Assembly (NCBI GenBank): GCA_018402235.1
Contig: JAGYJJ010000002.1
Span: 185,251-249,250 of the forward strand
Direction of reading: 5' to 3'
DNA length: 64,000 nt
From: Candidatus Nanopelagicales bacterium
GTDB taxonomy: Bacteria > Actinomycetota > Actinomycetes > S36-B12
Of this stretch, positions 10,907 to 29,714 are shown in pieces (the stretch's first letter is position 1; each line of letters starts with the position of its first letter). Both the position numbers and the translations under genes were made by a program. The notes under the pieces are model-generated. The model was not told the DNA's origin, made no database searches, and saw only the letters and a program-made list of their open reading frames with translations.

Positions 10907-10926
10907 AACCTAGCAACGGATCCGAT

Positions 10927-12114: not shown

Positions 12115-12179
12115 ACGGGGCGAAGTTACGGGGCGAAGTCACGGGGCGAAGTCACGGGGCGAAGTTACGGGGCGAGGTC
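12115..12179. repeat. tandem repeat, 5 x 13 bp (ACGGGGCGAAGTY; the last unit is degenerate)
   Basis: Read directly from the sequence. The final units overlap the last codons and TAA stop of the minus-strand oxidoreductase gene (stop at 12165-12167). Confidence 0.95.
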
Positions 12180-13334
12180 GACCACGGGCTCCCAGCGCCG
12201 AGATGTCCACGAATCGATAAGTGCCTGCTGGACGCTGACGACGTCCACGGCCTCCCGGAAACTTGGGCTGAAACGGTCTCCCCCAGCCAGCGATTCCAAG
12301 AAAACATGGTCTTCGATGGTCACGAGGTCCTCGAAGCCGATCGCGTTCGCCTGACCGGGCACGAAGGCTCCGTGGAACGGGAATCGATCGCCGCCGTAGA
12401 TCGTGGTGTAACCGGAACTCAGGTCGTCGGTGAGCCGGTAGTAGCGCAACTCGTTCAGTGTCTCAAGATTCCACGCCAACGCCCCCTTGGTTCCGTAGAC
12501 CTCGAAGGTGTTTTGGCTTTCTGGACCCACCATGGTTCGGCTGGCTTCGAATGTCCCGGTGGCGCCACCAGCGAATGTGCACAACATCGAGGCGAAGTCC
12601 TCGTTTTCCACCGCGCCCTTGGGGTCTTCGGGTTTGCCGCGTCCATAGTGACCCGCCGAACCCTGAGCCACAGGCCGGTGCGTGATGGTGGTGTTCTTCA
12701 TTCCAATCACTTCGGTGATCGGACCTACGAGGAACTGTGCCATCGATACCGAGTGACTCAAGATGTCGCTGGTCACTCCGTATCCGGCCTGATCCAAAAA
12801 GAAGCGCCAGGTGAGTAGTCCGAGTTCGTCGCTGCCGTACATAGACAGGAAATGACCACGGTAGTGCGTGATCTCTCCGAGCTGGCCTGATTCGATGATG
12901 GACTTGGCGTGGATAACGAGCGGAGCCCACAGATAGTTGTAACCGACACCCGTCGCAACGTTTGCCGCACTTGCGGCTTGATAGGCCGCAACAGCTTGCT
13001 CCGGCTTGCCGCCGATCGGCTTCTCGCTGAACACGGACTTTCCGGCAGCCGTTGCCGCTTCGATCATGGGCACATGCAACATGTTCGGCGCCGTAACCCA
13101 CACTGCATCGACGTCGTCGGCGTTAACGGCCTCGCGCCAGTCCTCGACCGATCGCTCGAATCCGAAATCCTCAACCGCCCGCGTGCGCCGCGATTCCTCG
13201 GTATCTGCGCACACGACTAGCCGAGGTGTGACATCCCTGTCGGGAAACAGCGAAGGGATGCGCAGCATCGAGCGACTGTGCGCCTGCCCCATCCAGCCCA
13301 GACCCAAAACAGCCACACCGATCGTCTTCTTCAT
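12165..13334 (-). CDS. Gfo/Idh/MocA family oxidoreductase
   Basis: Contains GVAVLGLGWMGQAHS (Rossmann) and FSEKP; 389 aa. Confidence 0.85.
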   Translation of the reverse strand: MKKTIGVAVLGLGWMGQAHSRSMLRIPSLFPDRDVTPRLVVCADTEESRRTRAVEDFGFERSVEDWREAVNADDVDAVWVTAPNMLHVPMIEAATAAGKSVFSEKPIGGKPEQAVAAYQAASAANVATGVGYNYLWAPLVIHAKSIIESGQLGEITHYRGHFLSMYGSDELGLLTWRFFLDQAGYGVTSDILSHSVSMAQFLVGPITEVIGMKNTTITHRPVAQGSAGHYGRGKPEDPKGAVENEDFASMLCTFAGGATGTFEASRTMVGPESQNTFEVYGTKGALAWNLETLNELRYYRLTDDLSSGYTTIYGGDRFPFHGAFVPGQANAIGFEDLVTIEDHVFLESLAGGDRFSPSFREAVDVVSVQQALIDSWTSRRWEPVVDLAP

Positions 13335-13341
13335 CTTTGAC

Positions 13342-14241
13342 CTACTTCACTCGTCCGGCAGCCGAGGTCATCGGCAGCCGCGGATCTTGTTCTTGATTAG
13401 CCCAGGACTCGCGAATCCAATGCTGCGAGGGGTCGTCGCAAAAAGCCATGGTCCGATCTTCGCCCGGCCCGGCCAGAACGTTGAGGAAGTACATCGGGTA
13501 CTCCGGGTTAGCAACGGTAGGGCCGTGAAAACCCTCCGGAACAAGATACGTGTCCTGATCGACAACGCTGAGCGTTTCGTCATGGCTGCCATCAACTGTG
13601 TACAGCCGGAACAAGCCCGAGCCCGTGGGATCCCCGTGTGGACCGTCTTGTCGACCGATCCGGAAGTAGTAAATCTCTTCGTTCATCGTGACGCAATCGC
13701 CGATTCCATCGTGGCGGTGCGGTGGCCACGAGGACCAGTTCCCTCCGGGGGTGATGACCTCGCACACATTGATCTTGTGTGCACCAGCAAAGGAATCGGG
13801 CGTGGCGTAATTCGTCACCTGTCGGGTTGACCGCCCCGCGCCGCGAACCTCAACCGGGACTGATTCCGCTGATCCGTAGTGGACCGGGAAGGTCTGCGAG
13901 GCTCGCGCGGTGACGATCGCTACCTCACCACTTTCGCCGGCGATGGCAACCTGTGAGCCCACCGGCACGTAGATCCAGTCCGAGACTGCGGCGAAAACGC
14001 CTTCGCGCCCGCGCATCGGAAACTCTTGCCCGTCGACCGTGACAACGAAATCACGCGCGGACAGCGAAACCAACACACCTTCTTCGCCGTCCAGCGTGAA
14101 TGCCACTGGGTCCCCCGGACGCAACCTGTACACGTGCATACCGCAATAGGTCCACCCAGCAGACTCCGGTGTGATGCGTAGATCGGCACGCCCCTGCGCC
14201 GCGCTGCCAGCCGGGATCAACCATCGGCGTTCTTCACTCAC
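13342..14241 (-). CDS. iolB: 5-deoxy-glucuronate isomerase
   Basis: Carries the GGNWSSWPPHRHD motif and shows overall similarity to IolB. Confidence 0.85.
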   Translation of the reverse strand: MSEERRWLIPAGSAAQGRADLRITPESAGWTYCGMHVYRLRPGDPVAFTLDGEEGVLVSLSARDFVVTVDGQEFPMRGREGVFAAVSDWIYVPVGSQVAIAGESGEVAIVTARASQTFPVHYGSAESVPVEVRGAGRSTRQVTNYATPDSFAGAHKINVCEVITPGGNWSSWPPHRHDGIGDCVTMNEEIYYFRIGRQDGPHGDPTGSGLFRLYTVDGSHDETLSVVDQDTYLVPEGFHGPTVANPEYPMYFLNVLAGPGEDRTMAFCDDPSQHWIRESWANQEQDPRLPMTSAAGRVK

Positions 14242-14262
14242 AACCGGACTCCTTCGTGTCGA

Positions 14263-15168
14263 CTAAGGGTTCTTAAGTGACGGGTGCACAATCTGCGCAG
14301 CGGCGGCTACCGCGCCCTCAACGTCGCCGTCTTCGGGATACACCAGCGCGCGACCAGCTACCAGACCGCGAACATTCGGCTCAGCCATCGCAGCCTGCCA
14401 TCCGGCGAACGTTTGATCTGAATTCGCTCCCGGATCGCCACCGAGCATCACGATCGGCATCGTGGTGGTTGCAGCGACTTTTGCCATGTCCGGCGACGCC
14501 GGCAGTTTCAGCCACGTGTATGCCGACGACGATCCCAAACCGGAGGCGATTGCCACCACCTTGATGAGGCGCTCGGTCGAGGTATCCAACCGCGCTCTCC
14601 CGTTCTCATCGATCAGGTACGGCAGCGGCTCGATCATGTTCATGAGTTTGCGATCAGCCAGTTCCGTCGAGATCGCCGCCACCATCTCCAAAGTTCGCGC
14701 CACCCCGGGATCGGTGTCCTCGATGCGCAGGAGCGTTTTGCCCCCATCCAGGCCGTAGTCAGCAATGTGATCGGCGTCGTAAGCAGTCAATCGATCATCG
14801 AGTTCCCACCTGGCCCCGATGATGCCGCCGCGATTCATCGTGCCGATCGCCACCACGCCCTCAAGCGCGCCCAGCCAGGCCAACTCCTCGAAAATGTCGG
14901 CACTGGCCATCACACCGTCCACTCCGGGAACGGCCAGGGCTCGAATCACCCGATCCAAGAGCGTGTATCGATCAGCGACCGCGAGCGGGTCGGACCCCGC
15001 AGCGAGCATTCCTCGCGCCGTGTGATCTACGGCAATGATCAGCAAATTGCCATCGGGGCCAACTAAGTCACGACGCTTACGCTGTTGCAGGGCACGCTGC
15101 AGTGACTCCGGTCGACGAATCCGGGCTTCGATGAGAGCCGAGTAATCCGCACGTTCCAAGCGATTCAC
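14263..15168 (-). CDS. IolJ-like aldolase / Cgl0159-family (beta/alpha)8 protein (probable 5-dehydro-2-deoxyphosphogluconate aldolase role)
   Basis: GTG at 15168 overlaps the iolC stop (GTGA). The family assignment rests on position after iolC and recalled similarity; the longer track ORF is an upstream extension. Confidence 0.6.
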   Translation of the reverse strand: MNRLERADYSALIEARIRRPESLQRALQQRKRRDLVGPDGNLLIIAVDHTARGMLAAGSDPLAVADRYTLLDRVIRALAVPGVDGVMASADIFEELAWLGALEGVVAIGTMNRGGIIGARWELDDRLTAYDADHIADYGLDGGKTLLRIEDTDPGVARTLEMVAAISTELADRKLMNMIEPLPYLIDENGRARLDTSTERLIKVVAIASGLGSSSAYTWLKLPASPDMAKVAATTTMPIVMLGGDPGANSDQTFAGWQAAMAEPNVRGLVAGRALVYPEDGDVEGAVAAAAQIVHPSLKNP

Positions 15169-16142
15169 GCAGTGCCGCCCTTCGTTCCGCCTCCACTGAT
15201 GATCGTTTCCACCGTCTCCGCGGTGGGCATGGCATCTGCACAGGTCAATTGTGTTGCCACGTAAGCGCCGGCCCCATTCGCGAATGCGCCGATCCGCTCG
15301 AGGTCCCACCCCGAGAGCAGGCCGTGGACTAGTGCTCCGCCAAAAGCATCGCCAGCTCCGAGGCCACACAGCACATCGATGGCCAGGGGTTGTACCCGCA
15401 CCCGCGATTGCGCGTCGGCGAGGAGTACTCCGCCGCCCCCAAGTTTCACAATCGCTGTCCGCACGCCGCGAGCAAGTAGTTCATCGGCCACAGCGTCGGG
15501 GTCATCGACACCGAGCGCCATGTCGCACTCGACACGGTTACCGACAACAACGCTGCTTTGTGCGATAGCGCGCTGTGCTGCTTCACGTGCAACCTCAACA
15601 CTCGACCATAACGAAGGGCGATAGTCCAGATCAAGAACAGTGTCCTTGTCTGGGCGCCTGCCTCGTGCTTCCAACCAGGCAAATGATGCGTCGGCCGTGC
15701 TGCCCTGGGCGAGTGCACCGACGCTCATCCAAAAAACCCGACAATCGCGGATGTCAGACTCAGGAACGTCGTCCACGGTCACGGTGGTATCCGGGGCCGC
15801 CGGTCCGCGGTAGAAGATAATCTGCGGATCCTCCGGCGGCGCCAATGCTGCAAGGACTACCGGAGTCAAAGCCGATTCGTCGCGGCCAACAAAGCGCGTA
15901 TCAACGCCCCACTCCCTTAGCCGCGCCACTACGTAGTCGCCCAGTGCGTCCGCCCCCACCTTGGTAACGATGGCTGCCGAGTGCCCATAGCGAGCAACAG
16001 CAACCGCGACGTTGGTGGGGCTCCCACCCACCGATTTGCGGAAGGTTTGCGGATCGGTGAACGCAGCATCGACCTCCTGGGCATAGAGGTCCACGCTGAC
16101 CCGCCCGACGGTGATCACCTCGGGTGCGCCTGCTGCGCTCAC
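15165..16142 (-). CDS. iolC: 5-dehydro-2-deoxygluconokinase (PfkB family)
   Basis: PfkB motifs GGSPTNVAV and GAGDAFGGAL. GTG at 16142 lies 5 nt after AAGGAG; ATG at 16205 is an alternative start. Confidence 0.85.
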   Translation of the reverse strand: MSAAGAPEVITVGRVSVDLYAQEVDAAFTDPQTFRKSVGGSPTNVAVAVARYGHSAAIVTKVGADALGDYVVARLREWGVDTRFVGRDESALTPVVLAALAPPEDPQIIFYRGPAAPDTTVTVDDVPESDIRDCRVFWMSVGALAQGSTADASFAWLEARGRRPDKDTVLDLDYRPSLWSSVEVAREAAQRAIAQSSVVVGNRVECDMALGVDDPDAVADELLARGVRTAIVKLGGGGVLLADAQSRVRVQPLAIDVLCGLGAGDAFGGALVHGLLSGWDLERIGAFANGAGAYVATQLTCADAMPTAETVETIISGGGTKGGTA

Positions 16143-20220: not shown

Positions 20221-23109
20221 TTAGGCGCGGTCGTCGGTGTAGAACGCGCGCACCTGCGGCATAACCGGACGCATCATGAACAGCGGACGACGCAGGCCCT
20301 CGGCATTCGGCCCTGGACGGGTCTTGGCCATCCACTCCCGGTACACCTCACGCGAACGTTCGGTATCGACCACAACGTCGCCGTACTTGTCCTCGTCGTG
20401 GGCCCGCTCGATGCGCACCTTCTGATGCCAGCAGTGCATGCCGGACCAGGTATCCGGGTGAACCGCGAAGGCGAGGTTTTGATGAACGCCCGGGTCTTCC
20501 CACGTGATGCGCGCGGAATCGGGATCGTCGCTTACGAACGGCTTAATGCCTTCCTTATAGCGCAGGCGCCAACGACCATCCTCAAGCTTGCCCACATCAA
20601 CCTTGCCTGTCACCCATCGGCTGCCGGCATCGTCAGTGGTGCGCCAGCGCCCCATGTGGTGGGACAACGCGGATACACCTGGCCGAATACCTTCAGTAGC
20701 CCAGATTCGCGGCACGAAGTAACCGATCTCGGTCGTGACTCGCACCATGTCGCCGGTCTGCAGACCCATGCGCTTGGCATCAATCGGGTTCATCCACAAC
20801 GGATGCTTGTTACTGATCTCGTTCAGGTACTTCGCGTTGCCCGAACGGGTGTGAATCAACGTAGGCAATCGGAAGGTGGGAACCAGGACCATCTCGCCGG
20901 ACTCTTCGTCGAGTTCGTGATGGGAGACGTGCGAGGTGATGTAGCACGGGGTTGCGTACTCCCGCCAACCGAAATCGGCCATGGACGGTGAGAAGAGCTC
21001 GAGTTTGCGCGAGGGGGTCAGCCAACCGGCCACCTGCGAGCCATCCTCAAGTTGCACGCCCACAGCGCCGGGCTCACCCACCAGCGGCTTTTGCGTTTCC
21101 GGGGTGATCGGCTTGCGCAGCACGCCGTTCTCGTCCGCTACCGCACCATCGAGTTCGGCTTCGGTGAGCGGGCGCTCGTCCTGGCGATACAGATCGGTAG
21201 CAATCTCCACCGCACCGTACTTACGCATGTATTCCAGCGGAGTCAGGCCGAGCTTCTCGGCTTTCTCCGGGAGGCCGGGAACCTGATTGTCGAAGATCCA
21301 GCCGTAGTAGTCGTCCACGGTGACCTTCTCCCCCGGTCGCCCGGGTGCTTCGAAGTGCTGACGAATGCCGAGTTCACCGGTGGGGTCGATGCGCCAGGAA
21401 AGTTCGATCCAAAATTCGGTCTCTTCCCACACCTCGCCGGGATTAGCGTCGCGGGTATCGCCGATCTTCTCGCCCATTTTCTCCAAAGCGACGCGACGAA
21501 CCGGCTGCCGGAAGCCAAGCCACTTTCCCGCGTATTGCTCGTAGGACTGGGTGTCGTGGCGCTCGGTGCTGTGACCGAAGGGCAGGACGTAGTCGGCCCA
21601 TACGGCGGTCTCGTTCCACGTGGGCGTCATGGCAATGTGGCAGCCCACGAGATCCTCATCTGACAGCGCCTCAATCCAGCTGAAGCCGTCGGGGTTCGTC
21701 CACACCGGGTTGTACACGCGTGAGAAGTAGGTATCGATCTTGCCGCGTCCGTCGAGCAGGAAGTGCGGCAGCAGGATCGAAAGCTCGTTCGTGGACATCG
21801 GAAACTCTGCCGGCCACAGCATCTCGTTCCACGAGTTGTGACCACCGGGCATAGACGGGCCATGCGGAATGAACTTGTTCCAGCCGTTCGGGCTGGTGCC
21901 ACCCTTTTGCCCAACGCTTCCGGTCAAGACGGTCAGGAAGAACAGCGCACGAGCAACCGTCCAGCCACCGAGGTTTCCAGCCGAGGCTGCGCGCCAGGTG
22001 TGCGCCGCCAATCTGCCGTTCGAGGTAGCGATGACCTTTGCCACACTCTCCACCTGCTCCACCGGGATTCGGCATTCTTGCGCGGCGAATTCGAACGTGT
22101 ACTTTGAGTAATCCTCGGTCAGAGCCTTTTTGAAGACCTCGAAGTCGTTTGCCGGCATATCTGGATGGATCTCGGTCATATACGTGGACCAGTTGACCCA
22201 CCGATGCATGTAGGCCCAATCGACTTGATCCGTGCGCATCAAGTACGACGCCGTTGCGAGTAGCAGAGCTGCTTCGGTTCCCGGCCATGCGGAGACCCAT
22301 TCATCGGCGTGCGATGCCGTGTTCGAGAGTCGTGGGTCCATCACGATGAGCTTGGCATTACCGTGCACCTTCGCATCCATGATGCGTTGGGCGTGCGGGT
22401 TGAAGTAGTGGCCCGACTCCAGGTGTGCCGAGATCAGCAAGATCACGTTCGCGTTCTGGTGATCCGGCGATGGCCGGTCGTAGCCACCCCACATCGAATA
22501 GCCGAAGCGCGCACCTGCCGAGCAGATGTTGGTGTGGGTGTTGTTGCCATCGACACCCCAGGTAAGCAATACCCGCTCGATGAATCCGTCCTCGCCGTGG
22601 CGACCTACGTGGTACATAATTTCATTGCGACGCTCTTCTTGGATCGCCTTGCGGATGCGACCTGCGATGTCGTCCAGGACGTCGTCCCACGAGACCCGCT
22701 CGAACTTCGCCTCGCCGCGCTTTCCGGAGCGCTTGAGCGGGTACAGGATGCGTTCGGGATCACTGGTCTGGTTGATCGTGGCCGGGCCCTTGGCGCAGTT
22801 GCGTCCACGCGATCCTGGATGCGCGGGATTGCCTTCGATCTTGACGACTTCCTTGGTTTCCTTGTCGATGAATGCCAGCAATCCGCATGCGGACTCGCAG
22901 TTGAAGCATGTGGTGGGCACCAGCATGTAGTGCTTTTCCACTTTGCGCGGGTGCGCCTTGGCGTCGTACATGACGACGTCGTCCCACTGATCTACTGGCG
23001 GATAGTTCGAGACGGTCTCTCGAACGCGCAACCCGAAGTGCTCAGGGCTGTCCGGTCCGACCGGTGAAGCAGCTGGCCGATGCCTGGTCTCCGGATCGCG
23101 TGGCGTCAT
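20221..23109 (-). CDS. bis-MGD molybdopterin oxidoreductase catalytic subunit with no Tat signal (SoeA-like by architecture)
   Basis: 962 aa. The N-terminal FS0 motif is CFNCESACGLL...NCAKG. The first ~60 residues have no RRxFLK motif or hydrophobic h-region. It sits next to FeS/NrfD, TusA and DsrE genes. Confidence 0.8.
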   Translation of the reverse strand: MTPRDPETRHRPAASPVGPDSPEHFGLRVRETVSNYPPVDQWDDVVMYDAKAHPRKVEKHYMLVPTTCFNCESACGLLAFIDKETKEVVKIEGNPAHPGSRGRNCAKGPATINQTSDPERILYPLKRSGKRGEAKFERVSWDDVLDDIAGRIRKAIQEERRNEIMYHVGRHGEDGFIERVLLTWGVDGNNTHTNICSAGARFGYSMWGGYDRPSPDHQNANVILLISAHLESGHYFNPHAQRIMDAKVHGNAKLIVMDPRLSNTASHADEWVSAWPGTEAALLLATASYLMRTDQVDWAYMHRWVNWSTYMTEIHPDMPANDFEVFKKALTEDYSKYTFEFAAQECRIPVEQVESVAKVIATSNGRLAAHTWRAASAGNLGGWTVARALFFLTVLTGSVGQKGGTSPNGWNKFIPHGPSMPGGHNSWNEMLWPAEFPMSTNELSILLPHFLLDGRGKIDTYFSRVYNPVWTNPDGFSWIEALSDEDLVGCHIAMTPTWNETAVWADYVLPFGHSTERHDTQSYEQYAGKWLGFRQPVRRVALEKMGEKIGDTRDANPGEVWEETEFWIELSWRIDPTGELGIRQHFEAPGRPGEKVTVDDYYGWIFDNQVPGLPEKAEKLGLTPLEYMRKYGAVEIATDLYRQDERPLTEAELDGAVADENGVLRKPITPETQKPLVGEPGAVGVQLEDGSQVAGWLTPSRKLELFSPSMADFGWREYATPCYITSHVSHHELDEESGEMVLVPTFRLPTLIHTRSGNAKYLNEISNKHPLWMNPIDAKRMGLQTGDMVRVTTEIGYFVPRIWATEGIRPGVSALSHHMGRWRTTDDAGSRWVTGKVDVGKLEDGRWRLRYKEGIKPFVSDDPDSARITWEDPGVHQNLAFAVHPDTWSGMHCWHQKVRIERAHDEDKYGDVVVDTERSREVYREWMAKTRPGPNAEGLRRPLFMMRPVMPQVRAFYTDDRA

Positions 23110-23148
23110 TTCTACCTCTCGACTGTCTGCTCGGTACTACAACAACTG

Positions 23149-24690
23149 TTAGGAAAGCGGCGGGTCCTGCGCAGCCATCACGAACACCCGCTCGTGCAAA
23201 ACGAGAGCGGGCTGCACGATCAGACCGGCGAGGGCTGCCAGTGCAACTGTGCCACCAAGTGCGGTGGGTAGCGCGATGAGACCACCGACGATCGTCAGCA
23301 GTATCGAACCACCCCAGAACTGAAGGCGGTAGCGCCCGTGGGTGATCGCATGCGCGGCTATCTGAGCGTTACGGGTTGAGTGGTTGCCCCCGAACTCCAC
23401 AGCAGTGATGAGTAGATGGGCGATCACGCCGGCGATGAGGGCCCAGGCGAGCCACTGCATGGTTGCCGCATCGGTACCGATGACCGCACCGACAACGAGG
23501 AGTGAACCCGCACCCACCATCGCGGCCTGCGCCAGCAGATGCCAGAACAACACAGGGGACTGCCACAGGTCGCGTCCCTCGGCTTGTCCGAACAAGAAGG
23601 CTGTATAGCCCGCGACCATCGCTCCGACCGGAATCGCCGGCCAGGCGAGGACGGTCAACCAACTGGTGTAGTCGGCCAGGTTCAACAGATCCGCCGCACC
23701 GATCAAGAACCACACGCCGGCAACCGCAGATCCAAGACCCAAGAAGATGCCACCGATGGCAAGCCACGACCTGCGATTGATTTTGCGCGGGTCAAGGAGG
23801 TAGATGAAGCGCTTGGGTTGCTTGAGGTCCCAGATGAGTAGAGCAGCAGTGACGACCAAGAAGCCCAGCGTCAAGAATGGCGCGACAGTGCTCACCAGGG
23901 CACCGGTATCGCCAAGCAGCAGCACCATCAAGCCAGCGAGCATGAGGGCTCCGGCCGCGATGGACTTCGTCCACAGATACGTCCAGACCTTCCAGCCCCA
24001 CGGGCGCGGATGCGCGGTGTTCAGCGTCAAGCGCGCGTTGGTAAGCGGATCGCCGGGCAGTTCGGCAGCCGTCTCTAACCGAAGCGGATCGGCATTGGCC
24101 CACAGGTAATTGCCATCCACAGGTGCGGCCAGCGGATCAAGCACCGTCTGGTCGGCACCCACGTAGTAGACGTTCGGTCGGGTGCCCTGCTCGGGCGTGC
24201 GGACGTTGATCGGCTCGATGCTCAAGAACTTGCTGATACCGCTGGTGGGATCGTCGATATCTCCCATCCAAATCGACTCAGTGGGACATACCTGGACGCA
24301 GGCCGGCTCCAGACCCTGGTCGATTCGGTGGGCACAAAAGTTGCACTTCGCAGCAGTGTTGGTGTTTGCATCGATGTAAATGGCGTCGTACGGGCACGCC
24401 TGCATGCACATCTTGCAACCGATGCACAGTTCGTTGTCGAAGTCGACGATGCCATCGTCACGAATGAACAACGCATTCGTGGGGCACCCCGTAACGCAAG
24501 GAGCATTGGTGCAGTGATTGCACCGCATAACGCCCATTTCACGCGTTGTGGTGGGGTATTCCCCCTTGTCTACGTACTTCACCCAGGTACGGAACTGACC
24601 AACCGGGATGTCGTGCTCTGTCTTGCATGCAACCGTGCAGGCGTGGCAGCCGATACAGGTGCGTTGGTCAATAGCGAAGCCGTAGCGCAC
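23149..24690 (-). CDS. fusion protein: 4x[4Fe-4S] ferredoxin (DmsB/PsrB-type) domain plus NrfD/PsrC-type 8-TM membrane anchor
   Basis: GTG start. Four cluster motifs are present (CIGCHACTVAC, CNHCTNAPCVTGCP, CIGCKMCMQACP, CNFC...CVQVCP), followed by about 8 hydrophobic helices. Confidence 0.85.
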   Translation of the reverse strand: MRYGFAIDQRTCIGCHACTVACKTEHDIPVGQFRTWVKYVDKGEYPTTTREMGVMRCNHCTNAPCVTGCPTNALFIRDDGIVDFDNELCIGCKMCMQACPYDAIYIDANTNTAAKCNFCAHRIDQGLEPACVQVCPTESIWMGDIDDPTSGISKFLSIEPINVRTPEQGTRPNVYYVGADQTVLDPLAAPVDGNYLWANADPLRLETAAELPGDPLTNARLTLNTAHPRPWGWKVWTYLWTKSIAAGALMLAGLMVLLLGDTGALVSTVAPFLTLGFLVVTAALLIWDLKQPKRFIYLLDPRKINRRSWLAIGGIFLGLGSAVAGVWFLIGAADLLNLADYTSWLTVLAWPAIPVGAMVAGYTAFLFGQAEGRDLWQSPVLFWHLLAQAAMVGAGSLLVVGAVIGTDAATMQWLAWALIAGVIAHLLITAVEFGGNHSTRNAQIAAHAITHGRYRLQFWGGSILLTIVGGLIALPTALGGTVALAALAGLIVQPALVLHERVFVMAAQDPPLS

Positions 24691-24695
24691 TCAGG

Positions 24696-24926
24696 TCACT
24701 TCTTTCGCACGAGGAAGCGCATCACGCCGCCGTCTTCGCTCGACTCAACGAGCTCGTTTCCGGTCTGCTCAACCCAAGCCGGGATGTCCGAACGAGCGCC
24801 ATTATCGGTGGCCTCGATCAGCATGGTCTCCCCTGACGCGAGTTCCTTGGCGGCCTTCGCAGTCATGAGAACCGGCATCGGGCACGTCTGGCCCTTGGCG
24901 TCGACAGTGGTTTTTGGATCTGACAT
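24696..24926 (-). CDS. tusA: TusA-like sulfurtransferase
   Basis: GQTCPMPVL (the CPxP active-site motif); about 76 aa. Either ATG 24926 or GTG 24929 could be the start. Confidence 0.85.
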   Translation of the reverse strand: MSDPKTTVDAKGQTCPMPVLMTAKAAKELASGETMLIEATDNGARSDIPAWVEQTGNELVESSEDGGVMRFLVRKK

Positions 24927-24957
24927 CACATATGCCTTTCGCTAGATGAACAAGCCG

Positions 24958-25458
24958 TTAGATGAACAAACTGATGTTGGAGTTAGCCATCTTCTTCAAA
25001 GCTGTAGCTGCGCCTACCGGTTCACCGAGACCATCAACCATCTGATCGGGCTCAATACCAAGGAGGTCCATGGTCATCTGGCACGGCCACATGTGCACGC
25101 CCATGTCCTTGGCCATCTCAAACAAGTCCTCCGGCGGCATCAGGTTGTTCTTCTTGGCAACCTTGCGCATCATCCAGTGACCCATTCCGCCCATTTCCAT
25201 CTTGGACAACTTCGCCTTCTTCATTCCCGGCGCATTCATGCCCGCCAGCATCTTGGTCATGGCGTCGTAACCTGTGATGCGGACGTCGTCCTTGACCAAG
25301 GGGAACAGTCCCCAGAAGGTGTAGAACACGGTTACGTCCATACCGTTCGCAGCAGCGGTTGAACTCAAGATCATGGTTGGCCAAAGCTTGTCGAGATCAC
25401 CGCTGAACGCGATGATGGTCATGGACTCCGGCTCGGTGTTGACAGGGTTGTCGGTCAT
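24958..25458 (-). CDS. DsrE/DsrF-like sulfur-relay family protein
   Basis: 166 aa with a strong RBS (GAGGAGGG) and a conserved Cys in WPCQMTMD. It has the classic DsrE3-TusA-type adjacency. Confidence 0.75.
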   Translation of the reverse strand: MTDNPVNTEPESMTIIAFSGDLDKLWPTMILSSTAAANGMDVTVFYTFWGLFPLVKDDVRITGYDAMTKMLAGMNAPGMKKAKLSKMEMGGMGHWMMRKVAKKNNLMPPEDLFEMAKDMGVHMWPCQMTMDLLGIEPDQMVDGLGEPVGAATALKKMANSNISLFI

Positions 25459-25585
25459 GGGCCCTCCTCAGGACACTGCCGACGTTAGATGTCCCGGCAG
25501 CCGTAAGCAAGGGCTTCTGGTCATTTCCCGAAAAATTGAGGGAATTGACACACAGACGCGCCATTGCGTATTAGCGTCTGCGCAT

Positions 25586-25617
25586 ATGGCTAGGTGACTG
25601 CACATGGCCAGGTGACT
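25586..25617. promoter_or_regulatory. direct repeat ATGGCTAGGTGACT - 4 nt - ATGGCCAGGTGACT in the divergent control region
   Basis: Read directly from the sequence, 60-90 nt upstream of the PDO start. Function is unknown. Confidence 0.3.
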
Positions 25618-25676
25618 ATGGGTGCCTGCGCCCACGGTCGAGTACAGGCGAACACAGGCGAGCACTGGAGGAATGC

Positions 25677-26807
25677 ATGCCCGGAACCATCACCCCCCGC
25701 GAGCTCTACGACGAGATCTCCCACCAGGAAGTGCCCTTCATCTTGGATATTCGAAACCAAGATGAGTTCGCCACCTGGCAGGTCGAGGGCACCAAGCCGG
25801 TGCCGACCAAGAACATGCCGATCTGGATGGCTGTCGAAGGTGTCGAGGACCTCGCCAAGGAAGTGCCTGCAGGGTCCGTGGTGGTCTGCGCCCACGGCAA
25901 CGGCAGCGACCTGCTACTTGACCTGCTCGCCGAAGCAGGCGTCGAGGCCCGCAGTCTGGTGGGCGGGACCGCAGCTTGGGCAGAACTCCTCGTCCCCGAG
26001 CCACTGGCCTGCTTGCCCGAAGGGGTTATCGGTTGGCAGATCCTCCGCCCCGCCAAGGCCTGCTTGTCCTACATGATCGGTGTTCGGGGTAAGGACGCCA
26101 TCGTGGTCGACCCGGCGCGCTTCTTGGACTTCTACATCGACCTGGCCGCAAGCGAGGGCATGACGATCACCCATGTCATCGACACACATGTCCACGCTGA
26201 CCACATCAGCGGCGGTCCTGATCTCGCCGAGAGGGTAGGTGGGACGTACCACCTTCCCCTCGAGGACACCGGTGGCTCCGTGCCGTTCCCGAATGAGCCG
26301 TTGGAAGACGGCACCGAGATCGATCTCGGTGGTCACACGGTCGCCACATTTGCGATCAAGATGCCCGGTCATACCCCCGGCACCACCTGCGTGCATATCC
26401 CCGGTCACCTGCTCCTGACCGGCGACACCGTGTTCGTTCGCGGCGTGGGGCGCCCGGACCTCACCGGCAAGGCCGACGAACTCGCCCGCGAGTTGTACTT
26501 CACAGTCAACGACAAGCTGCGCCCTCTTGATCCGCAGACAACGGTGCTCCCTGCCCATTGGTCCACCGCAGAGGAAATGGGTGCCGATGGCATGGTGAAG
26601 ACCACCCTTAGCCAGGTCTTTGAGTCGACGCTCCTGAATGAAGAGGATCTTGTGAAGTTCGTTGAAGAGATCGTCGGCACGTTGCCGAGCGCGCCGGACT
26701 TCTACGACACCATTCGCGAAGTGAACGCTGGCAAAAAGGTCTCCGCCGAGGAAATTGAGACTCTCGAGATCGGCAAGAACCAGTGCGCTGCCTCCACAAC
26801 GGTGTAA
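25677..26807 (+). CDS. rhodanese-domain / MBL-fold persulfide dioxygenase fusion (Blh/CstB-like)
   Basis: N-terminal rhodanese loop VVVCAHGNGS, MBL motifs IDTHVHADHISGG and MPGHTPGT. Confidence 0.8.
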   Translation: MPGTITPRELYDEISHQEVPFILDIRNQDEFATWQVEGTKPVPTKNMPIWMAVEGVEDLAKEVPAGSVVVCAHGNGSDLLLDLLAEAGVEARSLVGGTAAWAELLVPEPLACLPEGVIGWQILRPAKACLSYMIGVRGKDAIVVDPARFLDFYIDLAASEGMTITHVIDTHVHADHISGGPDLAERVGGTYHLPLEDTGGSVPFPNEPLEDGTEIDLGGHTVATFAIKMPGHTPGTTCVHIPGHLLLTGDTVFVRGVGRPDLTGKADELARELYFTVNDKLRPLDPQTTVLPAHWSTAEEMGADGMVKTTLSQVFESTLLNEEDLVKFVEEIVGTLPSAPDFYDTIREVNAGKKVSAEEIETLEIGKNQCAASTTV

Positions 26808-26852
26808 TACCAACCTGACAAGCATGTCCCCAAACAAGTAGGGTCTTCGGCT

Positions 26853-27206
26853 ATGGACAAGCAGACGGAGATGGAAATTCATGATCTGCATGCCCGAATT
26901 TGTAAAGCCATCGCTGATCCCAAGCGGTTGCTGATCATTAACGAATTGCGTAATGGTCCGATGACCGTCAACGAGATCGCCGACGCACTGGAGTTGTCGC
27001 AAAGCAACACCAGCCAGCACCTAGCCGTTCTTCGAGATCGCAACGTGCTTCAGGCTGACCGTGAGGGAGCGAACGTCTACTACTCACTTCGCAGCAAAAA
27101 GGTCGTCAAGGCAATCGACTTGTTGCGCGAGTTCATGGCTGAGGAACTGACCGGTGCCACTAAATTGCACAAGGCAGCCGGCCGTCTTGCTGCAGCGCGC
27201 CGATAG
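26853..27206 (+). CDS. ArsR/SmtB family transcriptional regulator
   Basis: Winged HTH region ICKAIADPKRLLIINELRNGPMTVNEIADALELSQSNTSQHLAVLRD. Confidence 0.9.
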   Translation: MDKQTEMEIHDLHARICKAIADPKRLLIINELRNGPMTVNEIADALELSQSNTSQHLAVLRDRNVLQADREGANVYYSLRSKKVVKAIDLLREFMAEELTGATKLHKAAGRLAAARR

Positions 27207-27227: not shown

Positions 27228-28405
27228 TTAGGGGCGCGTGACCCAGGGAAGCGGGATCCACGGCACAACCTGACCTGCAGCCACGCCATTTGAGGGGACC
27301 ACCGCCCAACCATCGGCATGCGCAATGCCGCGCAGCATCGCTGAAGACACATGGGTTACCTCTCGAAAACCCCCAAGTTCGCGCCTGCCCACCATCAAAC
27401 GAGTCAGATCCTTTCGCGCGGGCGCAATGGCCTGAGCCATCTGAATCCTCGGTAATTCACGATCGCCCCGCCCCAGCCAGGTGTCGAGCAATGGCGCCGC
27501 CAACGTGACCACGGCCACCAATGCGCTCAGGGGATTGCCGGGCAACCCAACAACGGGCGTGCCCCCGCAGCGCGCAAGCATCATCGGATGACCGGGACGA
27601 ACCGCAACGCCATCAACGAGGAACTCACATCCCGATTCCTGTAGGGCCGAGCGCAGGAAATCTCTGTGCCCGCGAGCAGTCCCACCCGTTGCAATGACTA
27701 CGTCGGCATTCTGAACTGCTGCCTGCAGCGATGAAACGAGGGCTTCGTGATCGTCCGCGACGTTTCGCACTTCGGTTATGACGCCGCCTAGAGCCTGGAT
27801 CCATCCGGGCAACTGAACGCCAAGTGCATCGCGCACCTGACCTGGACCTGGGAGCCCTTCAGTTACCACCTCATCCCCCAACACCAGGACAGCAATGGAG
27901 GGCGGAACGAAAACGTCGACCTCATCCACCCCGACTGATGCCAGGAGTCCGATCAGCGCAGGGTTGAGGACATCACCGCGTATGGCCAGTTGATCCCCAC
28001 GCGCACACTCTTCGCCCTGTGGACGAATGTGCACTTTGTCTGGGATATCAGCCACAACAGTGCTTGCGGCAACCACGCTCGAGACTTCCCACGGGATAAC
28101 GGCCGACGCACCCTCGGGAATCAAGCCCACCGGTTGCGATGCGCATCGCCTGTCCGGCCTGGAGCCCAGAACTCATCGGCGGGAATGCCCGTGTCGATAG
28201 TTCCCACAATCGTCCACGGGCCATCGCCAGCAACTACCCAACCGTCCATGGCAGCGGTTGGGAAACCAGGTAGGTCAACGTGGGCGACTACCTCAGCTGC
28301 AAGCGTTCGACCGACTGCCATCGCGAGAGGCACCTGCTGTGCACGTCCGACTGCCACCGCGCCCAGTGCAATGTCACGCGCGGACCACCAACTGCTTTCA
28401 CCCAT
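27228..28405 (-). pseudogene. moeA: molybdopterin molybdotransferase MoeA, disrupted by two single-nucleotide frameshifts
   Basis: The protein is spread over three frames: ...FPTAAMDGWVVAGDGPWTIVGTIDTGIPADEF | GLQAGQAMRIATGGL | IPEGASAVIPWE...GGTARG...GLPGNPLSA. The junctions are near 28165-28172 and 28120-28125. Confidence 0.7.
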
Positions 28406-28410
28406 CGAAC

Positions 28411-28641
28411 TCACGGGCAAGCCGGGCAAGCAACACTGGCGGTGGTCAACGGATCCGCGCCCAGGGCAACCGCGTAGCCGAGCAGGTAGGTGGAGATGGG
28501 TGCTGCCGGCCGCTCGACTAGGTGGGCGGCATCCTTGGCTACATCCAAGATGACATCGGTATTCGTCGGCGCTGGTACTCCCAGTTCAGCGGTCAGTTGC
28601 CTGATCCATGTCGCCAATCGCTGTGCCTGTTGCTCGTCCAT
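28411..28641 (-). CDS. DUF6457-like small protein commonly found between mobA and moeA in actinobacteria
   Basis: 76-aa ORF in the tightly packed mobA-x-moeA arrangement. The family is recalled, not searched. Confidence 0.5.
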   Translation of the reverse strand: MDEQQAQRLATWIRQLTAELGVPAPTNTDVILDVAKDAAHLVERPAAPISTYLLGYAVALGADPLTTASVACPACP

Positions 28642-28653: not shown

Positions 28654-29205
28654 TCATGTCCCGAGTTCCTGTGCCGCGTTGAGAGCGCGCTGGAAGTCAC
28701 CGGGAGTATCGATGTCCAGAAGGCTAACGCCCGATCGAAAATGCACGACGGACGACGCCAGATTTCCAACTAAAGCGTGAAAGGCAATGCCGTTCCAATC
28801 ACTGCGCTCCTCGGCGACCCGCACCAACGCCGTACGCCGATAGACCGCGCACAACCACTGCTGCTTGCCGCTGGGGTCCTCCGGTAACCAGGCTTCGATG
28901 AGGTGATCAGAGGCCTGCGTCTGCCACACATCGAGAACCCGATTCAGGGCGCGCTGAGCGAGCGGCATGTCCACAGCGAGCACGCCTACGAAATCAGCGT
29001 CGATCTCAGGCAGCGTCGAAACAACCGCCGCCGCCGGTCCACCACCCCGCTCGGGTCCCACTGGCGTCACCGGTGCGCCACCATCAACGGCATTCACCGA
29101 CTCCACCGCTCGCTCCACAAGCGATCGACCGTGAAACTCAGTTGACGCTTTGTCTTTGCCGAAGCGCGACGACGCGCCTCCGGTCAAGACGAGCCAGTGG
29201 ATCAC
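28654..29205 (-). CDS. mobA: molybdenum cofactor guanylyltransferase MobA
   Basis: GTG at 29205 overlaps the upstream stop (GTGA). The N-terminal motif LVLTGGASSRFGKDK is present. Confidence 0.8.
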   Translation of the reverse strand: MIHWLVLTGGASSRFGKDKASTEFHGRSLVERAVESVNAVDGGAPVTPVGPERGGGPAAAVVSTLPEIDADFVGVLAVDMPLAQRALNRVLDVWQTQASDHLIEAWLPEDPSGKQQWLCAVYRRTALVRVAEERSDWNGIAFHALVGNLASSVVHFRSGVSLLDIDTPGDFQRALNAAQELGT

Positions 29206-29714
29206 CCGGCTCGTTGAGCGGAGTTCGCCGCGTGTGTCTCGGCCTCTTGGACGATCTGTTGCAGTTGGGTGACTGTTGCGGTGAGCCGACCGTCCCATTC
29301 CCCGGCACGCACATGCCACATCACCGTATCCACGCCTTCTTCCACCGCACTGCGTTGGGATTTCGGACCGTTGGGCCCTAGACGATCCAGGACGCGATCA
29401 GCAGCCGCAAGCCAGTTCTCCGCGATCTGGAGGTGCCCAACTTCCTTGGTGAGTTCGCGCAGTTCAGCACCCGGGTGGGACCGCGTGGGCGTGACCTCGT
29501 TGATCCGAGATTCGGCCTCTGCGACGGCCGCCTGAAGTTCCTTGCGTACCGCCTCGTGGATATGTGATCGCTGGATCCGCGAGCGAAGGTCCTCACATGC
29601 GTGCTTGGCATCGTGCTTTGCCTTGTAGAAGCGGTCTTCGGTGCGATGCGGCTTGTGCTTGGCAGCATCCCGCTCTGCTCGTGTCTTGTCGCGGCCATTC
29701 TCCCGTGGAGGCAT
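29202..29714 (-). CDS. hypothetical basic, helix-rich protein translationally coupled to mobA
   Basis: In-frame ATG at 29714 (MPPRENGRDKTRAERDAAKHKPHR...). No family was recognised. Confidence 0.4.
   Translation of the reverse strand: MPPRENGRDKTRAERDAAKHKPHRTEDRFYKAKHDAKHACEDLRSRIQRSHIHEAVRKELQAAVAEAESRINEVTPTRSHPGAELRELTKEVGHLQIAENWLAAADRVLDRLGPNGPKSQRSAVEEGVDTVMWHVRAGEWDGRLTATVTQLQQIVQEAETHAANSAQRAG

What the first reader, a model, noticed from the sequence alone, without database searches (positions are those of the whole stretch)
20221..27206. Candidate cytoplasmic persulfide-to-sulfite-to-sulfate module: DsrE - TusA - fused FeS/NrfD - signal-less molybdoenzyme, divergent from rhodanese-PDO plus ArsR
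Seen: four minus-strand genes are packed with 5-39 nt gaps. They are a DsrE/F-like protein (Cys in WPCQMTMD), a TusA-like protein (CPMP), a 513-aa four-cluster ferredoxin fused to about 8 NrfD-type TM helices, and a 962-aa bis-MGD oxidoreductase (FS0 motif CFNCESAC...C). The first 60 residues of that oxidoreductase contain no twin-arginine motif or hydrophobic signal core. Divergently transcribed are a rhodanese (CAHGNGS) - MBL (HVHADH) fusion and an ArsR repressor, and mobA and moeA (needed for bis-MGD) lie immediately downstream. Established: SoeABC of purple sulfur bacteria is a cytoplasm-facing Mo/FeS/NrfD sulfite:quinone oxidoreductase. Blh/CstB/ETHE1-type dioxygenases turn persulfides into sulfite. 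TusA and DsrE-type proteins relay sulfane sulfur. Inference: the locus would couple persulfide capture, dioxygenation to sulfite and quinone-linked sulfite oxidation. I do not know this combination as a described system in actinobacteria. The alternative is that the Mo enzyme acts on polysulfide, thiosulfate or tetrathionate.
Basis: partly seen in the sequence, partly recalled or inferred. Interest (0 to 1): 0.7.

Follow-up and report, generated by a model that had tools for sequence, protein, structure and literature searches.

The report
Cytoplasmic molybdoenzyme joined to persulfide-handling genes
A lake actinobacterium carries a conserved gene cluster that pairs persulfide-handling proteins with an uncharacterised, inward-facing membrane molybdenum enzyme, most likely a sulfite-to-sulfate oxidase of a lineage that standard annotation does not recognise.

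Summary
Window 20221-27206 holds DsrE2B-like, TusA, a four-cluster FeS/8-helix NrfD fusion and a 962-aa Cys-ligated Mo-bisPGD subunit. They lie on one strand with 5-39 nt gaps. A rhodanese-persulfide-dioxygenase fusion and a one-Cys ArsR regulator are transcribed divergently. Neither redox protein can carry a Tat signal, so the enzyme faces the cytoplasm.

The set is conserved in 44 of 48 informative Actinomycetota loci, including Rhodococcus jostii RHA1 plasmid pRHL3. The Mo/FeS-NrfD pair also occurs in Chloroflexota, Acidobacteriota, Planctomycetota and haloarchaea. There its only recurrent function-specific neighbours are a NarJ-type chaperone, rhodaneses, PDO-rhodanese fusions and SulP permeases.

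The catalytic subunit matches no curated family. It is 22-26% identical to TtrA, PhsA and a DmsA-like protein, and at most 20% identical to any solved structure. Its nearest relatives outside the family carry Tat signals. I could not obtain a labelled SoeA sequence. Indirect evidence suggests a lineage distinct from canonical SoeABC.

Best reading (about 0.5): a Soe-like sulfite:menaquinone oxidoreductase that completes a cst-like persulfide detoxification route. Function is inferred, not shown. This is a new variant of a known kind.

The parts
20221..23109 (-). Catalytic Mo-bisPGD subunit, 962 aa. It has an N-terminal FS0 [4Fe-4S] motif (C68/C71/C75/C105). The Mo-ligand Cys196 sits in the signature SHTNICSAGAR. 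There is no Tat signal.
   Evidence: Pfam domains. Cys196 aligns with PsrA Cys173 and the ArrA Cys. Upstream stops. Family-invariant residues. AF2 model pLDDT 84, with ArrA and PsrA as best folds.
23149..24690 (-). Fusion of a four-cluster ferredoxin (residues 1-~185) and an 8-helix NrfD-type quinone-binding membrane domain (residues 232-508). The N-terminus has no signal peptide, so the FeS domain is cytoplasmic.
   Evidence: (best NCBIfam match TtrB, 196 bits). The fusion is conserved across phyla.
24696..24929 (-). TusA-family sulfur carrier, 77 aa, with active Cys16 in CPMP.
   Evidence: Pfam TusA 81 bits (cut-off 28.6). Cys16 invariant in 47/47 homologues.
24958..25458 (-). DsrE2B-type (soluble) sulfurtransferase, 166 aa, with Cys126.
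   Evidence: Pfam DrsE_2 156 bits. Best PDB matches 2QS7 and 3PNX. Cys126 invariant in 47/47.
25568..25588 (-). Conserved box CATATGCGCAGACGCTAATAC, read on the minus strand, about 110 nt upstream of dsrE2. It has a palindromic core TATGCGCA(TA) followed by a -10-like TAATAC. It is a candidate promoter/operator.
   Evidence: A TATGCGCA-type box (one mismatch allowed) occurs in 38 of 45 actinobacterial dsrE2/rhd-PDO intergenic regions. Binding by ArsR is inferred.
25677..26807 (+). Fusion of a rhodanese (Cys71 in CAHGNGS) and a persulfide-dioxygenase-type MBL domain (THVHADH, PGHTPG, TGD), 376 aa, with invariant Cys129 and C-terminal Cys370.
   Evidence: Pfam. Best PDB matches 3TP9, 3R2U, 4YSB, ETHE1 4CHL and BpPRF. 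Cys conservation.
26853..27206 (+). ArsR/SmtB-family repressor, 117 aa, with a single invariant Cys17. It is the candidate sulfur-responsive regulator of the divergon.
   Evidence: NCBIfam HTH_metalloreg 88 bits; BigR model only 52.7 bits (cut-off 155). Cys17 invariant in 41/41. PDB relatives include HlyU, YgaV, a Rhodobacter-type ArsR regulator (6O8K-6O8O) and BigR.
27228..28429 (-). moeA (Mo insertion into molybdopterin), disrupted by two frame changes in this window. Accessory, not core.
   Evidence: Intact in L019, L001, L020 and L002. Adjacent to the locus only in the Nanopelagicales-type loci.
28654..29319 (-). MobA-like nucleotidyltransferase (GMP attachment for bis-MGD). Accessory.
   Evidence: Pfam NTP_transf_3 1.5e-16.

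Best explanation
The locus encodes a cytoplasmic route from sulfane sulfur to sulfate.

- Inferred: a rise in persulfides modifies the single Cys of the ArsR repressor. This de-represses both divergent transcription units.
- Inferred from family knowledge: TusA and DsrE2B capture and pass on persulfide sulfur. They play the part of the multidomain CstA of Staphylococcus.
- Inferred from sequence: the rhodanese-PDO fusion takes the persulfide and, with O2, converts it to sulfite.
- Orientation shown, substrate inferred: the membrane complex faces the cytoplasm. It consists of the 962-aa Mo-bisPGD subunit and the FeS/NrfD fusion. It oxidises sulfite to sulfate at the Cys-ligated Mo centre. Electrons pass through FS0 and the four clusters of the fused ferredoxin to menaquinone bound in the NrfD domain.

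The complex would thus do the job of SoeABC. It appears to be a separate lineage of complex iron-sulfur molybdoenzymes, with subunits B and C fused and gene order (BC)-A.
For: - Gene content, motifs and tight spacing.
- No Tat signal is possible on either redox protein, and the FeS domain is covalently N-terminal to TM1.
- The Mo ligand is Cys, as in the solved Psr and Arr enzymes. Wells et al. (PMC10100899) also list Cys for SoeA.
- The PDO domain is closest to CstB-type and ETHE1-type enzymes.
- All catalytic Cys are invariant.
- Six-gene synteny holds in 44/48 informative Actinomycetota loci, including the isolates Nocardioides taihuensis, Intrasporangium calvum and R. jostii RHA1 pRHL3.
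- Around the Mo/FeS-NrfD pair in 30 loci of other phyla, the only recurrent function-specific neighbours are a NarJ-type chaperone (10), rhodanese (6), MBL/PDO-rhodanese (4) and SulP sulfate-permease-family transporters (3; 5 loci in the wider ±6-kb clustering). In L051 a SulP-STAS-rhodanese gene lies directly after the Mo gene.
- In Thermomicrobium roseum a CsoR/CstR-family regulator directly precedes the pair. That organism also has a strongly expressed sHdr system (PMC6776052).
- Hosts are mostly aerobes, and PDO needs O2.
- KO-based surveys report PDO in many phyla, including Actinobacteriota, Chloroflexota and Planctomycetota, but find almost no direct sulfite dehydrogenase (PMC12345210).
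Against: - There is no experimental or transcript evidence. No RNA runs hold this sequence.
- No labelled SoeA could be compared.
- The family has no KO-type name in JGI records and reaches no NCBIfam cut-off.
- The FeS domain is closest to TtrB, and the gene order matches ttrBCA.
- The nearest relatives outside the family are Tat-exported proteins of unknown function.
- TusA and DsrE2 sit in the same transcription unit as the Mo enzyme, while PDO is divergent. This could mean that the substrate is carrier-bound sulfur rather than free sulfite.
- The moeA next to the locus is frame-shifted in this window.
Confidence: 0.5

Rival explanations
1. The complex is a menaquinol-dependent reductase working on the cytoplasmic side, in the manner of Psr, Phs or Ttr. 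It would reduce sulfane sulfur presented by TusA/DsrE2 to H2S, or reduce thiosulfate or tetrathionate. This would dispose of reactive sulfur when O2 is too low for the dioxygenase.
For: - Best partial HMM matches are PhsA, DmsA and TtrB.
- Best solved folds are ArrA and PsrA.
- Gene order is BCA, as in ttr.
- TusA and DsrE2 are in the same operon.
- KO-based studies have called ttrABC or phsA in soda-lake Actinobacteria (PMC6704655).
- Own knowledge: the Aquifex complex now called SoeABC also reduces sulfur compounds in vitro.
Against: - All characterised Psr, Phs and Ttr enzymes are Tat-exported. This one cannot be.
- Identity to labelled TtrA and PhsA is only 26% and 22%.
- Hosts are largely aerobic heterotrophs.
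- The conserved partner is an O2-dependent, sulfite-forming dioxygenase.
- SulP-family permease neighbours fit an oxyanion product better than H2S.
- Reduction back to sulfide would undo detoxification.
Confidence: 0.17
2. The Mo enzyme takes its substrate directly from TusA or DsrE2. It would oxidise the protein-bound persulfide (or thiosulfonate) to sulfite or sulfate with menaquinone as acceptor. This would be an O2-independent third cytoplasmic sulfane-sulfur-oxidising system beside rDsr and sHdr. PDO would be a parallel oxic route.
For: dsrE2 and tusA are immediately upstream of the FeS-NrfD and Mo genes on the same strand, with 5-28 nt gaps, in 44/48 loci. Their Cys are invariant. Own knowledge: SoxCD gives a precedent for a Mo enzyme oxidising carrier-bound sulfane sulfur.
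Against: In most non-actinobacterial loci the pair occurs without tusA or dsrE nearby. Only 2 of about 30 loci have them. This argues for a small diffusible substrate. No bis-PGD enzyme is known to act on a protein-bound persulfide.
Confidence: 0.1
3. The substrate is not a sulfur compound. One option is formate: a review tentatively calls an uncharacterised NrfD-containing complex of Actinobacteria, Chloroflexi and Chlorobi 'FqoABC'. Other options are arsenite, selenium or another oxyanion. The sulfur genes would then be neighbours only.
For: - Some UniRef names for family members read 'formate dehydrogenase'.
- The taxon distribution of 'FqoC' in PMC8076601 resembles that of this family.
- The best solved fold is ArrA.
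- The regulator belongs to the ArsR family.
Against: - The Mo-ligand Cys is followed by Ser in the invariant signature HTN(I/V)CS. Own knowledge: formate dehydrogenases have a Sec/Cys-His pair here.
- NCBIfam scores for Fdh, Arr, Nap and Nar models are 5-20 times below their cut-offs.
- No ars genes are adjacent.
- The rhodanese loop CAHGNGS lacks the CX5R of arsenate-reductase or phosphatase types.
- The sulfur-gene linkage is conserved over 63-96% Mo-subunit identity, with further sulfur neighbours in other phyla.
Confidence: 0.08

Closest known systems
SoeABC sulfite:quinone oxidoreductase (Allochromatium vinosum, Ruegeria pomeroyi, Aquifex aeolicus)
   Same: Both are three-module complex iron-sulfur molybdoenzymes: Mo-bisPGD with FS0, a four-cluster FeS module and an 8-helix NrfD module. 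Both lack Tat signals and face the cytoplasm. Wells et al. list Cys as the SoeA Mo ligand. My recollection is that the catalytic subunit is about 950-1000 aa. Both are linked genomically to cytoplasmic sulfite-forming systems and TusA (PMC8076601, PMC10100899, PMC11507549).
   Different: - The B and C modules are fused here.
- Gene order is (BC)-A.
- The partner is PDO rather than rDsr or sHdr.
- In the review table, SoeC occurs only in Proteobacteria, Clostridia and Aquificae.
- By eye, the NrfD domain has the common Tyr/Asp/Ser/Tyr-Thr quinone-site pattern, not the SoeC pattern (sequence).
- JGI gives no Soe-type KO name.
- Orthology is untested.
Staphylococcus aureus cst operon (CstR, CstA, CstB, SQR)
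   Same: Both have a persulfide-responsive divergon with TusA and DsrE sulfurtransferase modules and a PDO-rhodanese enzyme. The MBL domain of the window protein is closest to the S. aureus MBL protein 3R2U and to 3TP9; I take 3R2U to be CstB from my own knowledge. The domain composition of CstA is also own knowledge.
   Different: TusA and DsrE are separate proteins here. The rhodanese is N-terminal to the PDO domain. The regulator is ArsR-type rather than CsoR-type. No SQR or TauE lies in the locus. A membrane Mo enzyme is added, so the predicted end product is sulfate rather than thiosulfate.
BigR-Blh and SqrR systems (ArsR-family persulfide sensors with PDO-rhodanese)
   Same: An ArsR-family repressor sits next to a PDO/rhodanese fusion, and both are divergently organised.
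   Different: BigR and SqrR use two Cys. This regulator has one invariant Cys. It scores 52.7 bits on the BigR model (cut-off 155), and the Blh model scores E = 8e-4 only.
TtrABC, PsrABC and PhsABC periplasmic sulfur-compound reductases
   Same: They have the same three modules. The FeS domain is closest to TtrB (196 bits). Gene order is BCA, as in ttr. The Mo ligand is Cys. PsrA is among the best solved folds.
   Different: The known enzymes are Tat-exported and periplasmic. This one is cytoplasmic. Identity to labelled TtrA and PhsA is only 26% and 22%. All NCBIfam scores are far below their cut-offs.
Green-sulfur-bacterial PSRLC3 (CT0494-0496), called 'FqoABC' in PMC8076601
   Same: It is an uncharacterised CISM complex that includes an NrfD-type subunit. 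From my own knowledge of earlier literature, its Psr-like catalytic subunit lacks a signal peptide and sulfite oxidation was proposed for it. The phylum distribution reported for 'FqoC' (Actinobacteria, Chloroflexi, Deltaproteobacteria, Chlorobi, Crenarchaeota) overlaps with this family's.
   Different: From my own knowledge, the three Chlorobaculum subunits are separate genes. No Chlorobi sequence could be fetched, so membership of the same clade is unverified.

Membership tests
SoeABC | Mo-bisPGD subunit with FS0, a four-cluster FeS subunit and an NrfD membrane subunit | tested here: met
   All three modules are present. FeS and NrfD are one polypeptide here, which is a variant.
SoeABC | No Tat or Sec signal on SoeA or SoeB; catalytic side faces the cytoplasm | tested here: met
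   In-frame stops lie upstream of both starts. The first FeS Cys is at residue 12. There is no RR motif. Homologues in RHA1, T. roseum and Natrinema also lack one.
SoeABC | Catalytic subunit orthologous to Alvin_2491, SPO3559 or aq_1234 | not testable with these tools
   No labelled SoeA sequence could be retrieved. There is no NCBIfam model, no PDB entry, no plasmid copy and no named hit. Indirect evidence is negative. JGI names are COG-type only. No other Tat-less cluster of about 960 aa is among the top 150 representatives.
SoeABC | Gene order soeA-soeB-soeC | tested here: not met
   The order here is FeS/NrfD fusion, then Mo subunit. The same holds in all 80 related loci that contain both genes.
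SoeABC | Sulfite:quinone oxidoreductase activity | not testable with these tools
   Needs enzyme assay or genetics.
Ttr, Psr and Phs reductases | Twin-arginine signal on the catalytic subunit; periplasmic active site | tested here: not met
   Labelled TtrA, PhsA and the Azoarcus relative all start with RR signals.
Ttr, Psr and Phs reductases | Score above the curated equivalog cut-off | tested here: not met
   PhsA 173 bits against 694. TtrA 113 against 1750. TtrB 196 against 416.
Formate dehydrogenase ('Fqo') | Sec/Cys Mo ligand followed by the catalytic His | tested here: not met
   The ligand context is the invariant TN(I/V)CS(A/S)(G/A/S)xR, with Ser after Cys. Fdh models score far below cut-off. 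The motif definition is from own knowledge.
Persulfide dioxygenase (ETHE1/CstB type) | MBL fold with the His/His/Asp iron triad and closest similarity to proven PDOs | tested here: met
   The motifs THVHADH, PGHTPG and TGD are present. Best PDB hits are 3TP9, 3R2U, M. xanthus PDO 4YSB, ETHE1 4CHL and BpPRF 5VE3. Activity is untested. NCBIfam has only the Blh model, with E = 8e-4.
TusA | Pfam TusA above gathering score, with the conserved Cys in CPxP | tested here: met
   81 bits against 28.6. Cys16 invariant.
DsrE2 | DsrE2-type fold with a conserved active Cys | tested here: inconclusive
   Pfam DrsE_2 scores 156 bits against 25, but the NCBIfam DsrE2 equivalog scores 83.6 against 210. Best PDB hits are 2QS7 (called DsrE2B in PMC11094781) and 3PNX. 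Cys126 is invariant.
BigR/SqrR persulfide sensors | Two conserved Cys forming an intramolecular di- or tetrasulfide | tested here: not met
   There is only one Cys (C17), invariant in 41/41. The BigR model scores 52.7 bits against 155.

The most novel reading that the evidence does not exclude
The Mo/FeS-NrfD complex, fed by TusA and DsrE2B, directly oxidises carrier-bound sulfane sulfur to sulfite or sulfate with menaquinone as acceptor. It would then be a third, O2-independent cytoplasmic sulfur-oxidising machine beside rDsr and sHdr. It would be spread through Actinomycetota, Chloroflexota, Acidobacteriota and haloarchaea.
Probability: 0.1. Interest if true: 0.9.

Novelty: new variant of a known kind. 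Interest (0 to 1): 0.6.

Why it matters
Persulfide dioxygenases are common in heterotrophic bacteria. The fate of the sulfite they make is often unexplained, because SoeABC, SorAB and SUOX are rare or absent in KO-based surveys (PMC12345210).

This enzyme family is abundant. It is highly conserved, at about 57-62% identity to bacteria of other phyla and 48-54% to haloarchaea, and is annotated only as 'molybdopterin-dependent oxidoreductase'.

If it is a sulfite dehydrogenase, several things follow. Sulfur budgets inferred from metagenomes of lakes, soils and sediments would need revision. Aerobic actinobacteria would gain respiratory electrons from sulfane sulfur. SoeABC would no longer be the only cytoplasm-facing NrfD-type enzyme lineage.

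A genetically tractable host, R. jostii RHA1 (plasmid pRHL3), makes this directly testable.

Tried and rejected
1. Getting a labelled SoeA for a direct phylogenetic test failed by every route:
   - NCBIfam has no Soe model.
   - The PDB has none.
   - Cluster look-ups of ten representatives gave only a generic molybdopterin-oxidoreductase name, a Psr/Phs chain A name and an unnamed partial product, none of them SoeA.
   - A homologue search from the divergent relative P0124 returned only the same family.
   - tblastn against 72,556 plasmids found RHA1, T. roseum, haloarchaea, one Sulfurovum pseudogene and one Tat-type Azoarcus enzyme. Everything else was Dms, Phs, Fdh, Nap or Nas.
   - Candidate Roseobacter hits turned out to be other enzymes.
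   - Dahl et al. 2013 and Gregersen et al. 2011 are not held.
2. P0124 was suspected to be canonical SoeA. This was rejected. It lacks the Mo-ligand Cys and its neighbours are the same family.
3. RNA evidence: no RNA runs contain the window sequence. The RHA1 locus could not be submitted. The T. roseum transcriptome compares growth phases, not sulfur exposure, so I did not look up the fold change of the pair.
4. A positive-inside count supports an N-in topology. I do not rely on it, because the K/R-rich loop after TM2 is a conserved NrfD feature (own knowledge). The argument rests on the absent signal peptides.
5. AlphaFold gave low confidence for the FeS half of the fusion, so domain docking was not interpreted.
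6. The sigma-70 consensus scan found no promoter. The conserved box came from comparing loci instead.
7. A Pfam survey of actinobacterial flanks was dropped, because longest-ORF calling is unreliable at this G+C content. RHA1 annotation and tblastn were used instead.

Full report
**What is there**

- On the minus strand, separated by 28, 5 and 39 nt:
  - a DsrE-family protein (24958-25458, 166 aa);
  - TusA (24696-24929, 77 aa);
  - a 513-aa protein (23149-24690);
  - a 962-aa molybdopterin oxidoreductase (20221-23109).
- On the plus strand, transcribed divergently:
  - a rhodanese-MBL fusion (25677-26807, 376 aa);
  - an ArsR-family regulator (26853-27206, 117 aa).

Pfam and NCBIfam confirm every domain.

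The 513-aa protein carries 16 Cys in four cluster motifs within residues 12-135. AlphaFold models eight transmembrane helices (residues 232-508) with high confidence.

The 962-aa protein has the FS0 motif C68/C71/C75/C105. Its Cys196 aligns with the Mo-ligand Cys173 of Thermus PsrA and with the ligand Cys of ArrA.

**Orientation**

- The Mo-subunit ORF is closed by a stop nine codons upstream of its ATG.
- The FeS ORF is closed by a stop directly before its GTG.
- The first 60 residues of the Mo subunit hold no twin-arginine motif.
- The first FeS cysteine is residue 12.
- The FeS domain is covalently N-terminal to the first membrane helix and has no signal. It must therefore stay in the cytoplasm, and the Mo subunit with it.
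- Homologues from R. jostii RHA1, Thermomicrobium roseum and Natrinema also lack signals.

This step is shown by the sequence.

**Who else has it**

The window comes from a Nanopelagicales-type actinobacterium. The best genome match is 96% identical in the Mo subunit (L019). The DNA is found in salt-lake, soda-lake and lake-water metagenomes.

I scanned one genome per GTDB species. The results:

- 50 of the loci are from Actinomycetota.
- 44 of the 48 with enough flank carry dsrE2-tusA-(FeS/NrfD)-Mo in the same order.
- 43 of 47 informative loci carry the divergent rhodanese-MBL gene, and an ArsR gene lies nearby wherever the flank reaches far enough.
- Isolates include Nocardioides taihuensis, Intrasporangium calvum and R. 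jostii RHA1 (plasmid pRHL3).
- The RHA1 cluster also holds two DUF202 membrane proteins, an Mrp/NBP35 FeS-cluster carrier, a second PDO-size MBL protein, thioredoxin and an AhpD-like protein.

The Mo/FeS-NrfD pair, always fused in the same way, also occurs at about 57-62% identity to the window's Mo subunit in:

- Chloroflexus, Roseiflexus, Anaerolineales and T. roseum;
- Blastocatellia and Vicinamibacteria;
- Planctomycetota, Calditrichota and KSB1.

In haloarchaea (Natrinema, Halomarina) it occurs at 48-54%.

In 30 such loci, the only function-specific Pfam families that recur within 2.6 kb are:

- a NarJ/TorD-type chaperone (10 loci);
- rhodanese (6);
- MBL (4, as PDO-rhodanese fusions);
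- sulfate-permease family (3; 5 loci in the ±6-kb clustering).

One of these is a SulP-STAS-rhodanese gene directly after the Mo gene in L051.

In T. roseum a CsoR/CstR-family regulator directly precedes the pair. That family includes the staphylococcal persulfide sensor CstR (own knowledge).

**What the accessory proteins are**

- *MBL domain.* It is most similar to the MBL-rhodanese proteins 3TP9 and 3R2U. I take 3R2U to be the S. aureus CstB from my own knowledge. Next come Myxococcus PDO, human ETHE1 and the Burkholderia PDO-rhodanese fusion. It keeps the motifs THVHADH, PGHTPG and TGD.
- *DsrE protein.* It is closest to the Sulfolobus DsrE2B structure 2QS7 and to 3PNX.
- *Catalytic Cys.* All are invariant across 41-47 homologues: rhodanese C71, TusA C16 and DsrE2 C126. 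Two further Cys of the fusion are also invariant, C129 and the C-terminal C370.
- *Regulator.* It has a single Cys (C17), also invariant. It fails the BigR model, scoring 52.7 bits against a cut-off of 155. It is a candidate sulfur sensor but not a BigR/SqrR member.
- *Intergenic box.* A box CATATGCGCAGACGCTAATAC (window 25568-25588, read on the minus strand) has a palindromic core and a -10-like TAATAC. A TATGCGCA-type box occurs in 38 of 45 actinobacterial intergenic regions. It is a candidate promoter/operator.

**What the Mo enzyme is and is not**

- *No curated match.* It reaches no NCBIfam cut-off. The best partial scores are the DmsA/YnfE subfamily (195 bits against 778), PhsA (173 against 694) and TtrA (113 against 1750). 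The FeS domain is closest to TtrB (196 against 416).
- *Not a formate dehydrogenase.* The ligand Cys sits in the invariant signature SHTN(I/V)CS(A/S)(G/A/S)xR and is followed by Ser. Formate dehydrogenases have Sec/Cys-His at this point (own knowledge).
- *Tight family.* In an exhaustive search of 1.84 billion cluster representatives, the whole family collapses into one full-length 50% cluster (P0121, 56%).
- *Next relatives.* These are a degenerate offshoot without the ligand Cys (P0124, 41%) and Tat-signal proteins of 915-1123 aa of unknown function (P0125 44-48%, P0163, P0149). Periplasmic Psr/Phs-like proteins follow at about 30%.
- *Labelled enzymes.* E. coli TtrA, PhsA and a DmsA-like protein are 26%, 22% and 23% identical.
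- *Structure.* A confident AlphaFold model (pLDDT 84, pTM 0.87) is closest to ArrA (target-normalised TM-score 0.75, 18% identity) and PsrA (0.77, 20% identity). No closer structure exists.

**Relation to SoeABC**

The architecture and the cytoplasmic orientation are those that define SoeABC in the literature (PMC8076601; PMC10100899). I could not fetch a labelled SoeA, so orthology is untested. Indirect evidence points to a separate lineage:

- JGI names for about 60 family members, and for the fusion, are COG-type names. The same source names a Psr/Phs relative with what appears to be a KEGG orthology name.
- No Tat-less protein of about 960 aa from another cluster scores above 247 bits. This is informative only if SoeA is of that size, which I recall but did not check.
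- The gene order is (BC)-A, with B and C fused.
- The review of NrfD subunits finds SoeC only in Proteobacteria, Clostridia and Aquificae. It places an uncharacterised 'FqoC' group, typed by Chlorobaculum CT0494, in Actinobacteria, Chloroflexi, Deltaproteobacteria, Chlorobi and Crenarchaeota. CT0494 belongs to the PSRLC3 complex once proposed to oxidise sulfite in green sulfur bacteria (own knowledge).

This family may be that group, but I could not verify it.

**How it most likely works**

Shown:
- gene content, conservation and catalytic residues;
- cytoplasmic orientation;
- a Cys-ligated Mo site.

Inferred:
- Persulfide sulfur is caught and relayed by TusA and DsrE2B.
- The rhodanese-PDO fusion dioxygenates it to sulfite.
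- The Mo complex oxidises sulfite to sulfate and passes electrons to menaquinone.
- ArsR releases the conserved box when persulfides rise.

The parts list equals that of the staphylococcal cst operon (own knowledge), with a membrane Mo enzyme in place of an exporter. I give this reading 0.5.

Rivals:
- a cytoplasm-facing quinol-dependent reductase of sulfane sulfur, thiosulfate or tetrathionate (0.17);
- direct oxidation of TusA- or DsrE2-bound sulfur (0.10);
- a non-sulfur substrate (0.08).

**Novelty**

Ten full-text searches, which also returned reviews and metagenome surveys, turned up no description of this actinobacterial module or of the fused FeS-NrfD/Mo pair. I read sixteen of the papers they returned.

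KO-based studies either miss the family or may label it ttr or phs (PMC6704655). They also report a lack of direct sulfite dehydrogenases in PDO-bearing communities (PMC12345210).

I rate it a new variant of a known kind: a complex iron-sulfur molybdoenzyme that is functionally Soe-like. Interest is moderate to high, because the family is abundant, unannotated and testable in R. jostii RHA1.

Noticed in passing
window 27228-28429 (-): moeA is split over three reading frames by two single-base frame changes near 28130 and 28170. It is intact (393-431 aa) in the closest loci L019, L001, L020 and L002. This is either an assembly error or a pseudogene.
   Followed up: partly
window 5174-6406 (-): A 410-aa TDT/TehA-family transporter (TIGR00816, 2.6e-41, below cut-off). 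Own knowledge: the family includes the yeast sulfite efflux pump Ssu1. It lies 15 kb from the locus.
   Followed up: no
window 25586-25617: Two near-identical direct repeats, ATGGCTAGGTGACT and ATGGCCAGGTGACT, lie next to the conserved promoter/operator box. Their function is unknown.
   Followed up: no
window 7935-15369: A myo-inositol catabolism block (iolG, iolB, a levoglucosan-dehydrogenase-like gene and a sugar ABC transporter), unrelated to the finding.
   Followed up: partly
L081 (R. jostii RHA1 pRHL3, 213186-234053): A plasmid-borne 'sulfur island'. It holds the same six genes plus two DUF202 proteins, Mrp/NBP35, a 459-aa MBL, thioredoxin, an AhpD-like protein and a second ArsR-MBL-MFS unit. 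Mrp/NBP35 follows the Mo gene in 24 other actinobacterial loci and in Natrinema.
   Followed up: partly
L083 (T. roseum megaplasmid) 8084-12835: A CsoR/CstR-family 'metal-sensitive' regulator directly precedes the FeS-NrfD and Mo genes. This suggests persulfide-responsive control outside Actinomycetota.
   Followed up: no
P0124, P0126, P0149 (relatives of the Mo subunit): These relatives lack the Mo-ligand Cys. They may be cofactor-less derivatives, as in QrcB or ActB.
   Followed up: no
L001, L020: These GTDB MAGs are titled 'uncultured Rubrivirga sp.'. They carry the whole locus at 90-91% identity with actinobacterial synteny, so the title is probably a binning or taxonomy error.
   Followed up: no
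window 25677-26807, residue C370: An invariant Cys seven residues from the C-terminus of the rhodanese-PDO fusion (GKNQCAAS). It could be a swinging persulfide carrier.
   Followed up: no
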